Of a DNA stretch of 64,000 nt, positions 5,785-8,111 are shown piece by piece. The notes beneath the pieces are model-generated. The model searched no databases and was not told where the DNA came from. It saw nothing but the letters and a program-made list of their open reading frames with translations. Positions within the stretch are counted from its first letter, which is position 1. Each line of letters begins with the position of its first letter. Position numbers and translations under genes: made by a program. Source of the stretch: an uncultured Monoglobus sp. (lineage in GTDB: Bacteria; Bacillota; Clostridia; Monoglobales; Monoglobaceae). The stretch is taken from positions 9,875-73,874 of the forward strand of contig CANPWW010000002.1 of assembly GCA_947585115.1 (NCBI GenBank), written 5' to 3'.

Positions 5785-5813
5785 TTGACAAAAGCGCAAT
5801 AATGATATATAAT
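5785..5813 (+). promoter_or_regulatory. Consensus sigma70/sigmaA promoter for candidate antisense RNA 1
   Basis: TTGACA (5785-5790), 17-nt spacer, TATAAT (5808-5813). Confidence 0.85.
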
Positions 5814-5819
5814 AATCAT

Positions 5820-5918
5820 AGAAAGAGAAACGGCAGAGCGTAAAAACGGTCAGCCGCTTCGGGAAGTATATAAAACAACTGCCTTTAGCTGCTAAACTTT
5901 AAAGGCGGTTGTGTTTTT
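5820..5918 (+). ncRNA. Candidate antisense/antitoxin sRNA 1 (~100 nt)
   Basis: Perfect promoter upstream, terminator hairpin plus T-run at the 3' end, no ORF; 27 nt at the 5' end are identical to the paralog at 44461-44487 (minus strand). Confidence 0.7.
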
Positions 5919-5919
5919 T
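5875..5919 (+). terminator. Intrinsic terminator of sRNA 1
   Basis: acaactgccttta...taaaggcggttgt hairpin followed by gtttttt. Confidence 0.75.
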
Positions 5920-6001
5920 ATTGCACAGATGGTGAAAATACTGTAAGTATCACAGCAATTACCATAAGAGCAAAAGCTATTTTGAAAAAAACTTTTTTCA
6001 T
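5918..6001 (-). CDS. 27-aa hydrophobic peptide MKKVFFKIAFALMVIAVILTVFSPSVQ (type I toxin-like)
   Basis: Manual translation; SD AAGGAGTG 7 nt upstream; single TM-like helix; same-length paralog at 44306-44389. Confidence 0.75.
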   Translation of the reverse strand: MKKVFFKIAFALMVIAVILTVFSPSVQ

Positions 6002-6177
6002 ATGCTATCACTCCTTTCTTTGTGTCTTAAACACGATGTTAAGTGTTTAGAAAGGAATGAAGCGACCAACCGTCTCTACGTTTCTATCTCTGCCTTTTAC
6101 GATTGCGCGTTTTATTCGCGCAAAGGTGTTTCTCCGCGCGAAACAGATCCGCACTTGCAGTTTTTGCTGCCACATAT

Positions 6178-6206
6178 ATAATAACATACTATGACAATTT
6201 TTTCAA
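6178..6206 (-). promoter_or_regulatory. Promoter of peptide mRNA 1
   Basis: TTGAAA-N17-TATTAT with TG extension; near-identical to 44111-44139. Confidence 0.7.
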
Positions 6207-6270: not shown

Positions 6271-8010
6271 TTACAGCTTACATATCCTGCCCATAAATAG
6301 GATCTCGCCGGATTTGCAGTCGCGTATTATGAATGTGAACGGGCGGTCAACGTTAAACTCTATCGGCTCGCTCGGATCAGGAGCCGCGGCTCCCGGAGCG
6401 GCCAAGACCGCCGTCGCCGCGGCGGCTTCGGAGCCTTCCTCATCAACGCTGATATATGTCTTGTGCAGCACTTTGTCGATATAAACGGAATACCCGTCGG
6501 GAACGCCCTCGATCATTTTTCCGAAATCCGCCCTGTTTTGATCAAACGCGGAGGCTATTCCCATGTCATTCAGATAATCCTTGAGCTCTTTTGAGGTCTC
6601 GACCTTGAATTTAGGCATTTTGAGCTTTACGCGGTTAAATTCGATCTTGTCAAAATATCGGTCATAATCAATATCTCCGCCGTCGTCAAGGCTTATGTAC
6701 ATTGAGGCGCCGCCACAGTACGGCAGCATTATCATGCTCAGTTTATCATCGCTGTAAACGCCGAAACTTTCGGTTTGACGCATAAAATCGACCGAGGACT
6801 CCGTGCCGTCAAAATTTTTGAAAATATCCTTCTTGGTAGAATCTTCGTTAAACTCGTCTACCCACGAGCCTTTAAAATACACCGCGTTCACCAGAGCCGC
6901 CAAAAAATCACCGTCGTCTGTTATCGTCGGGATCTTGCCGTTTGTCTTTTCGCTTGTCCACTCGTTGACGCGCCGCGCCGCGTCGCTGCCTCCGACGATC
7001 TCGCTCGTTCCGCTATAAAAATCGTTGATCGCTTTTTCAAACTCCGAGCCGAATTTCATTTTCGCGCCCGGAAAATAATCGCGGTTGAGCCAGATCGAAT
7101 TCGCGATGCTCAATTGAGCGGAGTCGATTTCGGAATAACGCTTTATCAGCTCCTTGACGCTCTTGTTATACTCGCCGAGATCATTTACTCCCAAAGCGGT
7201 GAGAATCTCCTTTTCGGTCTCGCCTTCCGCGCCGTTTGCGGCCATGGCCATGGCGATCTTTACGGACATCGGCGAAAACATATAATTTTCGCTCTTATCA
7301 AATCTCGAGTTCAGCTTATAGGCAAACGCGTTTTCGCTCTCGGACTCCGGCGTCGCCGTCGGCGCTCCGCTGCGCGAGATCAAGCTCTCCAAAAACGTGC
7401 CGCCGTCTTTTTTGCGCGTGTAAAGCAGGTTGCAGGCCATGACCGCGGCGTCTCCGCGCGTGATCTTGTCGCCGGGATCCGCCTTGACGCTCTCAGCCGC
7501 GGCGGTAAGCCGCTCATCGGGATCCGGCCTGAATTTGGCGGTTATTCCTATCCGTTCCGCCTCACTTATATAACCTTCGGGATAATTCAGCTGCGCAGCG
7601 GTTCCGGCGCTCTCGTACCAATAAAAGCGCGTGAGAGCGGTGACAAACTCGCCGTAGGTCACAAGCTCGGCGGGTCTGAACGTCCCGTCGGGATATCCGC
7701 TGACTATGCCTCGCTCGCATAACGCGCCCGCCGCGCCCTCGGCGTAGCTGCCCGCAAGATCGGAGAACACATTTCCGTCACCGTCGGGGTACGCGCCCAT
7801 GCGCGCGATAACCGCGGCTGTCTCGGCGCGGGTTATGCGCTCATCCTCTCTGAATGCGCCGTCGGGATCGCCGTTCATGACCGAGATGGATCTAAGCTCC
7901 GACACGGAAGCTCCGACTCTGTCACCGTCGTAGAGAGGCGCCGCAGCGGTGGGCAGCGCTGTCAGCGCGAGAGCAGCCGACGCGCACAGCGCCAATAATC
8001 TTTTTTTCAT
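6271..8010 (-). CDS. Secreted SLH-domain serpin
   Basis: Signal peptide MKKRLLALC (start 8010, AAGGAAAGG SD); SLH repeats (GDPDGAFREDERITRAE; GYPDGTFRP); serpin motifs FSPMS, NAVYFKGSW, EEGSEAAAAT hinge, VDRPFTF. Confidence 0.92.
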   Translation of the reverse strand: MKKRLLALCASAALALTALPTAAAPLYDGDRVGASVSELRSISVMNGDPDGAFREDERITRAETAAVIARMGAYPDGDGNVFSDLAGSYAEGAAGALCERGIVSGYPDGTFRPAELVTYGEFVTALTRFYWYESAGTAAQLNYPEGYISEAERIGITAKFRPDPDERLTAAAESVKADPGDKITRGDAAVMACNLLYTRKKDGGTFLESLISRSGAPTATPESESENAFAYKLNSRFDKSENYMFSPMSVKIAMAMAANGAEGETEKEILTALGVNDLGEYNKSVKELIKRYSEIDSAQLSIANSIWLNRDYFPGAKMKFGSEFEKAINDFYSGTSEIVGGSDAARRVNEWTSEKTNGKIPTITDDGDFLAALVNAVYFKGSWVDEFNEDSTKKDIFKNFDGTESSVDFMRQTESFGVYSDDKLSMIMLPYCGGASMYISLDDGGDIDYDRYFDKIEFNRVKLKMPKFKVETSKELKDYLNDMGIASAFDQNRADFGKMIEGVPDGYSVYIDKVLHKTYISVDEEGSEAAAATAVLAAPGAAAPDPSEPIEFNVDRPFTFIIRDCKSGEILFMGRICKL

Positions 8011-8111
8011 AACACTCACCTTTCCTTTGATCTGAAAATATATTAAAAACTTCACCTTACTTTATTAGACGACAAAAAGTAAAATAAAGTTCCCGTTTTT
8101 TGTAAAATAAT

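What the first reader, a model, noticed from the sequence alone, without database searches (positions are those of the whole stretch)
5843..6076. Long-range 5'-leader/3'-tail pairing that works only on the peptide-mRNA strand
Seen: leader GAGACGGUUGGUCGCUUC (6076-6059) pairs at 18/18 positions with tail GAAGCGGCUGACCGUUUU (5860-5843). Every non-Watson-Crick position is G-U on the peptide mRNA strand and would be an A-C mismatch on the other strand. Copy 2 has the same helix (44239-44257 with 44448-44467, one bulge) with different bases. Inference: the mRNA runs through the whole sRNA gene and closes on itself beside the anti-SD, like hok or aapA mRNAs, and the sRNA 5' end competes for the tail.
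Basis: partly seen in the sequence, partly recalled or inferred. Interest (0 to 1): 0.75.

Follow-up and report, generated by a model that had tools for sequence, protein, structure and literature searches.

The report
Toxin mRNA closed end-to-end
A small membrane-peptide gene and its convergent antisense RNA, found in many copies in rabbit-gut Monoglobus bacteria, make a messenger whose 3' tail pairs with its own 5' leader; it is a new member of the known type I toxin-antitoxin kind and looks most like bsrG/SR4 of Bacillus subtilis.

Summary
Leader 6076-6059 pairs 18/18 with tail 5860-5843 on the minus strand. The five wobble pairs would be A-C mismatches on the other strand.

The helix is 22 bp, and two more blocks (7 and 8 bp) pair the rest of the tail with the 5' UTR, up to the complement of the sRNA start.

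I found 60 copies in rabbit-gut Monoglobus and Clostridia MAGs. In 36 canonical copies the 22-bp helix is 99% paired (660 Watson-Crick, 125 G-U, 6 A-C cells), and three pairs show double compensatory changes. A variant with a 155-nt insertion and an unrelated neighbouring family also close 5' to 3'.

The hairpin after the stop codon has a U-tract only on the sRNA strand, so read-through is plausible. No transcript data exist.

Folding does not support the hok/aapA logic. Removing or blocking the tail tightens the ribosome-binding site (10.9 to 15.4 kcal/mol, 35/36 copies), as shown experimentally for bsrG/SR4. A mok-like leader ORF is rejected.

No Rfam, Pfam or NCBIfam family matches. Verdict: a new member of a known kind, of moderate interest.

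The parts
6178..6206 (-). Copy 1 toxin-mRNA promoter: TTGAAA, 17-nt spacer, TG-extended TATTAT. The inferred start is about 6171-6173.
   Evidence: 10/12 match, TG before the -10; conserved in 36 copies.
6100..6173 (-). Copy 1 structured 5' UTR: hairpins P1 (6170-6157), P2 (6154-6136) and P3 (6123-6103), with the H3 5' strand GGAGAAAC (6135-6128) between P2 and P3.
   Evidence: RNAalifold predicts P1-P3 with many compensatory changes. GGAGAAAC is nearly invariant although my search pattern did not select for it.
6088..6094 (-). Copy 1 H2 5' strand GGCAGAG, which pairs with CUCUGCC 5838-5832.
6059..6080 (-). Copy 1 H1 5' strand (leader) CGUAGAGACGGUUGGUCGCUUC. Its last 5 nt, GCUUC, can pair alternatively with the SD-AUG spacer.
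6004..6059 (-). Copy 1 anti-SD (CAUUCCUUUCU 6059-6049), internal hairpin, SD (AGAAAGGAGUG 6019-6009) and spacer GAUAGC (6009-6004).
   Evidence: the anti-SD/SD pairs covary (2-7 sequences changed on both sides at four of the five pairs).
5918..6001 (-). Copy 1 peptide ORF, 27 aa: MKKVFFKIAFALMVIAVILTVFSPSVQ (stop codon included).
   Evidence: 27 aa in all 36 canonical copies, start ATG in 35 (ACG in L024); hydrophobic core conserved.
5875..5912 (.). Shared hairpin. It is an intrinsic terminator for the sRNA (U-tract on the plus strand to about 5921) and has no comparable U-tract on the mRNA strand.
5861..5874 (-). Variable single-stranded linker. I propose it as the toehold for sRNA binding.
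   Evidence: unpaired probability 0.79 in the mRNA and 0.83 in the sRNA. The sequence differs between copies.
5824..5860 (-). Copy 1 3' tail: H1 3' strand 5860-5839, H2 3' strand 5838-5832, H3 3' strand 5831-5824. It can also fold locally (GAAGCGGC..GCCGUUUC) before a U-rich stretch, which makes it a candidate mRNA terminator.
5785..5921 (+). Copy 1 sRNA gene: promoter TTGACA-17-TATAAT (5785-5813), start about 5820-5821, about 100 nt long. Its 5' 40 nt are the complement of the tail.
   Evidence: conserved in 60 copies, including orphan copies.
44111..44305 (+). Copy 2 mRNA promoter (44111-44139) and 5' UTR, with the H3 5' strand 44181-44188, H2 5' strand 44222-44228, H1 5' strand 44236-44257, and the anti-SD/SD.
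44306..44389 (+). Copy 2 peptide ORF, 27 aa: MKHWALKAAVMLFVIVIIHIAFAPVVH.
44448..44485 (+). Copy 2 3' tail: H1 3' strand 44448-44470 (one bulged A), H2 3' strand 44471-44477, H3 3' strand 44478-44485.
44386..44520 (-). Copy 2 sRNA gene: promoter TTGACA-17-TATAAT (44520-44492), start about 44486, terminator hairpin about 44395-44435.

Best explanation
Each locus is a type I toxin-antitoxin-like module. A moderately strong promoter makes an mRNA of about 350 nt for a 27-aa hydrophobic peptide. A perfect-consensus convergent promoter makes an antisense sRNA of about 100 nt.

The mRNA is not stopped by the hairpin after its stop codon, which terminates only the sRNA. It runs on to about the sRNA start. 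There a local tail hairpin followed by a U-rich tract may terminate it (inferred).

The 37-nt tail then pairs with three segments of the 5' UTR: H3 8 bp, H2 7 bp and H1 22 bp. This closes the molecule next to the local anti-SD/SD hairpin. The closure is shown by comparative analysis.

The sRNA 5' 40 nt are the perfect complement of the tail. The leader is a G/U-weakened mimic of that sRNA segment.

I propose the following steps, which are inferred from folding and from the bsrG/SR4 precedent:
1. The sRNA nucleates on the copy-specific single-stranded linker and the hairpin loop.
2. It displaces the leader from the tail by strand invasion.
3. The freed leader end GCUUC re-pairs with the conserved SD-AUG spacer GAUGC. 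This lengthens the SD-sequestering helix and blocks translation.
4. The roughly 100-bp duplex exposes the mRNA to RNase III.

In this model the closed full-length mRNA is the stable, weakly translatable form. It is not an inert precursor awaiting 3' trimming.
For: - Module anatomy and promoters.
- Copy number: 60 copies, up to about 9 per MAG, in Monoglobus and Clostridia.
- H1 in 36 copies: 660 Watson-Crick, 125 G-U, 6 A-C, 1 other; 99.1% paired; three pairs changed on both sides, such as C-G to U-A in L039 and L068.
- RNAalifold independently returns H1, H2 and H3, plus P1-P3 and the anti-SD/SD, with 30 covarying pairs in the consensus structure overall.
- Strand preference: -129.6 against -109.9 kcal/mol; duplex -47.7 against -31.9.
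- The tail is paired to the 5' UTR with P = 0.94, and freeing it costs 34 kcal/mol.
- The type B variant, with a 155-nt insertion, keeps H3, H2 and 13 bp of H1.
- An unrelated neighbouring family (L056, L084, L070) closes its 5' end on a tail beyond its sRNA terminator.
- U-tract after the shared hairpin: 4.4 of 8 on the sRNA strand against 2.1 of 8 on the mRNA strand.
- A tail-local hairpin of -13 kcal/mol is followed by 7.3 U in 12 nt.
- RBS opening cost is 10.9 kcal/mol closed against 15.4 tail-blocked, in 35/36 copies, Wilcoxon p = 6e-11.
- The GCUUC/GAUGC alternative pairing is conserved in at least 94% of copies.
- Toehold accessibility is 0.79 in the mRNA and 0.83 in the sRNA; the sRNA-tail duplex is -79 kcal/mol.
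- Precedent: bsrG helix P1 (nt 1-35 with 232-262) is opened by SR4, and the SD helix grows from 4 to 8 bp (PMC3834814).
Against: - No transcript ends are known. The only RNA runs give contigs over the leader alone.
- The tail side of H2 and H3 was fixed by my search pattern, so those two helices show conservation of the 5' partner only, with no covariation.
- Covariation in H1 is modest. Shuffle controls reach the observed values in 24-61 of 500 trials, because variation is low and the copies are related.
- The RBS is predicted to be strongly closed in both states, so the 4.5 kcal/mol difference may not matter in vivo.
- Toxicity of the peptide and antitoxin activity of the sRNA are untested.
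- Orphan sRNA copies keep the 5' region intact without an mRNA in cis. Part of the tail's conservation is therefore explained by the sRNA alone.
Confidence: 0.55

Rival explanations
1. hok/aapA-type logic. The closed full-length mRNA is translationally inert. Slow 3' trimming removes the tail, the 5' UTR refolds, the SD opens and the toxin is made unless the sRNA intervenes.
For: 5'-3' closure is the hallmark of hok and aapA1 mRNAs (PMC5416894). The closure here is strong and conserved. The freed purine-rich 5' UTR blocks (GGAGAAAC, AGAAACG) could in principle compete for the CU-rich anti-SD.
Against: Thermodynamic folding of 36 copies shows the SD is less accessible after tail removal: unpaired probability 0.21 falls to 0.09, and opening cost rises by 4.5 kcal/mol. 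The SD is held by a local anti-SD, not by the 3' end. The sRNA targets the tail itself, so a trimmed mRNA would lose its antitoxin site. A mok-like ORF is not conserved.
Confidence: 0.15
2. H1 is a long-range intrinsic terminator. The GC-rich part of the leader/tail helix followed by the invariant U5 (CCGUUUUUACG) stops the mRNA at about 5842. The mRNA would then overlap only sRNA nt 22-100, and H2 and H3 would not exist in it.
For: U5 immediately follows the GC-rich 3' strand in every copy. The A/G-rich leader segment opposite the U-tract resembles the A-tract of terminators.
Against: A terminator stem enclosing 190 nt of structured RNA has no known precedent (my own knowledge). The 5' UTR blocks GGCAGAG and GGAGAAAC, complementary to sequence beyond the U5, are nearly invariant although my search did not select them. 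The type B variant keeps exactly these blocks.
Confidence: 0.12
3. There is no intramolecular helix. The mRNA ends at the shared hairpin. The leader resembles the sRNA 5' region because of an ancestral inverted duplication, or because both bind a common partner such as a protein. Alternatively the inverted repeat is a DNA-level feature of a mobile repeat.
For: The module is multi-copy. The three shared blocks occur in the same order in the sRNA and the 5' UTR, as a duplication would give. Orphan sRNAs keep the region.
Against: The 125:6 G-U:A-C asymmetry and the compensatory changes are what selection for pairing on one RNA strand gives. The repeats are internal, not terminal, to the conserved unit. 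The shared hairpin lacks a U-tract on the mRNA strand. An unrelated family shows the same closure with a different sequence.
Confidence: 0.1

Closest known systems
[quoted passage not shown]
   Same: The sRNA is convergent and overlaps the 3' part of the toxin mRNA. The toxin mRNA 5' end pairs with a 3' segment in a long interrupted helix (P1, nt 1-35 with 232-262) from which the SD hairpin and ORF domains branch. In bsrG, sRNA binding leaves the 5' strand single-stranded and lengthens the SD-sequestering helix. The same direction of change is predicted here in 35/36 copies.
   Different: No sequence relation was detected: the peptides match no Pfam or NCBIfam toxin family, and there is no Rfam match. 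Here the closure starts about 40 nt into a 170-nt 5' UTR that carries three extra hairpins. The tail reaches the complement of the sRNA +1. There is no separate downstream terminator stem-loop; the tail itself may act as terminator. The sRNA terminator hairpin sits inside the closed loop. The sRNA invading domain is invariant across paralogues.
hok/sok (plasmid R1) and aapA1/IsoA1 (Helicobacter pylori, PMC5416894)
   Same: A stable toxin mRNA is closed by a 5'-3' long-distance interaction. The systems are multi-copy chromosomal families with a small hydrophobic peptide.
   Different: In those systems the antisense RNA is complementary to the 5' region, the 3' end is an inhibitor, and 3' trimming activates translation. 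Here the sRNA is complementary to the 3' tail, the SD is held by a local anti-SD, and predicted tail loss tightens the RBS. The mok-type coupled ORF is not conserved.
par (fst/RNA II) of Enterococcus faecalis pAD1 (as summarised in PMC3834814; otherwise my own knowledge)
   Same: Two convergent transcripts share one hairpin between the genes. The peptide is small and hydrophobic.
   Different: In par, direct repeats make the sRNA 5' end complementary to the mRNA translation-initiation region, and both RNAs stop at the shared terminator. Here the repeats are inverted, so the sRNA 5' end is same-sense to the leader. The hairpin has a U-tract for the sRNA only.

Membership tests
Type I toxin-antitoxin system (generic) | Short (<60 aa) hydrophobic, membrane-type peptide ORF | tested here: met
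   27 aa with a charged N-terminus followed by a hydrophobic helix. Length is 27 aa in all 36 canonical copies, and the ATG start is kept in 35 of 36.
Type I toxin-antitoxin system (generic) | Cis-encoded antisense sRNA gene overlapping the toxin mRNA | tested here: inconclusive
   A perfect sigma-70 consensus promoter and an intrinsic terminator are present on the opposite strand in both copies and in 60 homologues. Expression could not be checked.
Type I toxin-antitoxin system (generic) | SD sequestered in the mRNA secondary structure | tested here: met
   The anti-SD/SD helix is predicted in the consensus, with compensatory changes (both sides changed in 2-7 sequences) at four of its five pairs.
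Type I toxin-antitoxin system (generic) | The peptide is toxic when over-expressed and is neutralised by the sRNA | not testable with these tools
   This needs expression experiments.
bsrG/SR4-like architecture | Long 5'-3' helix in the toxin mRNA whose 3' strand lies in the region complementary to the sRNA | tested here: met
   H1, H2 and H3.
bsrG/SR4-like architecture | sRNA binding frees the 5' strand and extends the SD-sequestering helix | tested here: inconclusive
   This is a prediction only: opening cost 10.9 to 15.4 kcal/mol in 35/36 copies, and the alternative pairing GCUUC/GAUGC is conserved.
bsrG/SR4-like architecture | Toxin or sRNA homologous to BsrG or SR4 | tested here: not met
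   No Pfam or NCBIfam toxin family and no Rfam family matches.
hok/sok | Overlapping leader ORF (mok) needed for toxin translation | tested here: not met
   The uORF that ends in ATGA is open in only 9/36 copies.
hok/sok and aapA/IsoA | Antisense RNA complementary to the 5' UTR or translation-initiation region | tested here: not met
   The sRNA gene lies downstream of the ORF. The leader is same-sense to the sRNA 5' end.
hok/sok and aapA/IsoA | Removal of the 3' end opens the SD | tested here: not met
   Prediction only, but consistent: the SD is less accessible without the tail.
par fst/RNA II | Shared bidirectional terminator, and direct repeats giving complementarity between the sRNA and the mRNA 5' end | tested here: not met
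   The U-tract is on the sRNA strand only. The repeats are inverted, not direct.
Any Rfam RNA family | Match at the gathering threshold | tested here: not met
   No match in the window. In the local E-value search the highest-scoring match is RsaD, 17.6 bits against a gathering score of 50, and the lowest E-value is 0.19 (SurA); all five matches are far below their gathering scores.

The most novel reading that the evidence does not exclude
The 3' tail is a built-in translational activator: an anti-anti-SD that pulls GCUUC away from the SD-AUG spacer. The sRNA is then an anti-activator working by toehold-mediated strand displacement. Every paralogue shares one invariant invading domain but carries its own toehold (linker plus hairpin loop). 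Nine or more toxin mRNAs and several orphan sRNAs per genome would thus form a partly cross-reacting network. In the type B variant this is layered on a protein-dependent (UAG-repeat) antiterminator. The same 37 nt would also serve first as the mRNA's terminator hairpin and then refold into the long-range helix.
Probability: 0.25. Interest if true: 0.65.

Novelty: new member of a known kind. Interest (0 to 1): 0.45.

Why it matters
This adds an undescribed, highly multi-copy type I toxin-antitoxin-like family in Monoglobus, a pectin-degrading gut Clostridia lineage with no described RNA regulators.

The 5'-3' closed toxin mRNA with a 3'-overlapping antitoxin has so far been probed in detail for bsrG/SR4. 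This family shows that the architecture recurs with unrelated sequence.

The natural series is also useful. It comprises 36 canonical copies, an insertion variant, orphan sRNAs and a second family. Together they give a ready-made set of compensatory variants for testing how an antisense RNA bound at the 3' end transmits a signal to the ribosome-binding site.

Tried and rejected
1. A mok-like leader ORF. In both window copies a TTG inside the helix opens a frame that ends in ATGA on the toxin start. The frame is open in only 9/36 copies, so I rejected it.

2. Riboswitch or known RNA family in the 170-nt 5' UTR. No Rfam match at the gathering threshold or by E-value.

3. Known toxin families. 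No Pfam or NCBIfam hit beyond noise.

4. RNA-seq evidence for read-through. Only two RNA runs hold any words. One run (X11) gives contigs from relatives over 5982-6099, deep only over the leader at 6050-6099, and nothing over the tail; the other (X13) lays nothing.

5. More diverse homologues to obtain covariation in H2 and H3:
   - The metagenome scan with the leader pattern gave 3 chance hits in coding sequence.
   - The viral scans gave only chance hits.
   - Plasmid and phage BLAST gave nothing.

It did reveal other toxin/sRNA families.

7. Mobile-element terminal inverted repeat. I rejected this because the repeats are internal to the conserved unit and show RNA-type G-U asymmetry.

8. 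SD opening on tail removal (the hok/aapA logic). Folding predicts the opposite.

Full report
**What is there**

The window holds two copies of one module.
- Copy 1 lies on the minus strand, about 6206-5785.
- Copy 2 lies on the plus strand, about 44111-44520.
- They are 82% identical over about 450 nt.

Each copy has these parts, in order:
- A TTGAAA-17-TGnTATTAT promoter.
- A 170-nt 5' UTR.
- An anti-SD/SD hairpin.
- A 27-aa hydrophobic ORF: MKKVFFKIAFALMVIAVILTVFSPSVQ in copy 1 and MKHWALKAAVMLFVIVIIHIAFAPVVH in copy 2.
- A hairpin directly after the stop codon.
- A linker of about 14 nt.
- A 37-nt tail.
- On the opposite strand, a perfect TTGACA-17-TATAAT promoter.

That promoter's transcript starts at the end of the tail and terminates at the hairpin, giving an sRNA of about 100 nt.

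**Checking the observation**

The reported 18/18 pairing is exact. It has 13 Watson-Crick and 5 G-U pairs, and all five G-U pairs would be A-C on the other strand.
- The helix extends to 22 bp (6080-6059 with 5860-5839).
- Copy 2 has the equivalent helix (44236-44257 with 44448-44470, one bulged A).
- The 5' UTR/tail duplex is -47.7 kcal/mol. One thousand dinucleotide shuffles average -30.0 +/- 3.4 and none reaches it. The other strand gives -31.9.
- The whole mRNA-strand RNA folds to -129.6 kcal/mol (z = -9.4). Its complement folds to -109.9.

**Relatives**

One scan of GTDB species genomes with a tail-plus-promoter pattern returned about 60 true copies. All are in rabbit-gut MAGs of Monoglobus and unnamed Clostridia, with up to about nine per genome.

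Nothing related turned up elsewhere:
- JGI metagenomes and IMG/VR gave only chance hits in coding sequence.
- PLSDB plasmids and INPHARED phages gave no match.
- No Rfam, Pfam or NCBIfam family matches.
- No paper in the library mentions such a system in Monoglobus.

**Comparative test of the helix**

In 36 canonical copies (alignment A2), the 22 pairs of H1 comprise 660 Watson-Crick, 125 G-U, 6 A-C and 1 other cell.
- 99.1% of cells are paired.
- Ten pairs vary on one side only, nearly all between G-U and Watson-Crick.
- Three pairs change on both sides, for example C-G to U-A in L039 and in L068, and G-C to A-U in four copies.

A transition in a Watson-Crick pair gives G-U on one strand and A-C on the other with equal prior probability. 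The 125:6 ratio therefore argues for selection on RNA of the peptide strand. Counted as distinct position-and-state combinations, the ratio is 13 against 4.

The shuffle controls are only moderately significant (24-61 of 500), because variation is low and the copies are related.

RNAalifold was run without any constraint on TSS-to-tail sequences (A3). It returns H1 and two further long-range blocks:
- GGCAGA with UCUGCC (H2).
- GGAGAAAC with GUUUCUCU (H3).

It also returns hairpins P1-P3 and the anti-SD/SD helix. Thirty of the 75 predicted pairs covary overall.

One caveat applies. The tail side of H2 and H3 was fixed by my search pattern. Only the near-invariance of their 5' partners counts as independent evidence.

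**Natural variants**

- Nine type B copies carry a 155-nt insertion that replaces the distal half of the H1 5' strand. They are still predicted to close through H3, H2 and 13 bp of H1.
- About eleven copies are orphan sRNA genes with the toxin lost and an intact sRNA 5' region.
- A second, unrelated peptide/sRNA family sits next to some copies (L056, L084, L070). Its mRNA 5' end pairs with a tail beyond its own sRNA terminator, using different sequence, and shows at least one compensatory difference.

The architecture therefore recurs independently.

**Does the mRNA reach the tail?**

No transcript data could be obtained. The indirect evidence is as follows:
- The conserved strand-specific pairing itself.
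- The shared hairpin is followed by a U-tract on the sRNA strand (4.4 U in 8) but not on the mRNA strand (2.1 in 8; examples AUAACCCC and AACCAAUU).
- On the mRNA strand the tail can fold locally (GAAGCGGC..GCCGUUUC, mean -13 kcal/mol) before a U-rich 12-mer (7.3 U). This is a candidate terminator placed exactly at the sRNA start.

After release, the long-range pairing (34 kcal/mol to undo) would replace the local hairpin.

**How it probably works**

A mok-like coupled ORF, suggested by the two window copies, is open in only 9/36 copies and is rejected.

Folding all 36 mRNAs gave these results:
- The SD is sequestered in every state.
- It is less accessible when the tail is deleted or blocked (unpaired probability 0.21 against 0.09).
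- The cost of opening positions -15 to +6 rises from 10.9 to 15.4 kcal/mol in 35/36 copies.

The cause is a three-way competition. The last five nucleotides of the leader strand, GCUUC, pair either with the tail GAAGC or with the conserved SD-AUG spacer GAUGC. The latter pairing is possible in at least 94% of copies.

The linker between the hairpin and the tail is single-stranded in both RNAs (0.79 and 0.83) and differs between copies. The sRNA-tail duplex (-79 kcal/mol) easily outweighs freeing the tail (34) plus unfolding the sRNA 5' hairpin (14).

The best-supported model is therefore:
1. The sRNA nucleates on the copy-specific linker or loop.
2. It displaces the leader from the tail.
3. 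The freed leader tightens the RBS helix.
4. The long duplex is presumably cleaved by RNase III.

**Comparison with known systems**

This is what structure probing showed for bsrG/SR4 (PMC3834814):
- Helix P1 joins nt 1-35 to nt 232-262.
- SR4 binding makes the 5' strand single-stranded.
- The SD helix grows from 4 to 8 bp.

hok and aapA1 share the 5'-3' closure. In them the antisense RNA targets the 5' region and 3' trimming activates translation (PMC5416894). Neither feature is met here.

par/fst shares only the hairpin lying between convergent genes.

The peptide and the RNAs have no detectable homology to any of these systems.

**Verdict**

This is a new member of a known kind: a type I toxin-antitoxin-like system with a 3'-overlapping antitoxin and a 5'-3' closed mRNA. 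Every functional step after the sequence-level evidence is inferred.

Noticed in passing
L003, L007, L042, L054, L084, L061, L062, L020, L027 (for example L007:5073-5550 +): The type B toxin mRNAs carry an insertion of about 155 nt in the leader. It holds five UAG triplets spaced by exactly 4 nt (UAGCGAUUAGGGAUUAGUGAAUAGCGAAUAGGG), a hairpin, and then a terminator-like hairpin followed by U7 upstream of the SD. From memory, the spacing resembles a HutP-type antiterminator binding site. This could be protein-controlled attenuation of a toxin gene.
   Followed up: partly
L009, L014, L081, L021, L050, L069, L057, L060, L070, L075, L077 (two copies): These are orphan sRNA genes. The toxin ORF and leader are lost or truncated at the 5' end, while the sRNA promoter, 5' region and terminator stay intact. 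This suggests the sRNA acts in trans on paralogous mRNAs.
   Followed up: partly
L056:4480-5000 (-), L084:1330-2330 (-), L070:1840-2420 (+), L021 and L087: At least three other small hydrophobic peptide / convergent sRNA families lie next to the canonical copies. Example peptides are MLNTILKIIVAAIIFFITVSIKAI, VKQLIRIILLTILFLVLFTIKTV and MDLNIIFILLVLIAILEIIKNIKK. The first family also closes its mRNA 5' end on a 3' tail and has a small terminator-like hairpin after it.
   Followed up: partly
window 6100-6173 (-) and 44144-44215 (+): The first 70 nt of the 5' UTR form three hairpins (P1-P3) with abundant compensatory changes across copies, and P3 has a conserved AAUAAAA loop. Their role is unknown and no Rfam family matches.
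   Followed up: partly
window 5998-6069 (-) and 44247-44309 (+): In both window copies a TTG inside the leader helix opens an ORF of 20-23 codons whose TGA overlaps the toxin ATG (ATGA). It looks like hok/mok coupling, but the frame is closed in 27 of 36 homologues.
   Followed up: yes
window 6050-6099: One RNA-seq run (X11, whole-organism metagenome) holds contigs from relatives covering the leader at word depth about 123. Strand and transcript ends are not recoverable from contigs.
   Followed up: no
window 6271-8055 (-): The gene next to copy 1 encodes a 594-aa protein with a signal peptide. By eye, its C-terminal half looks serpin-like (it ends ...FNVDRPFTFIIRD...). I did not check this with any tool.
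   Followed up: no
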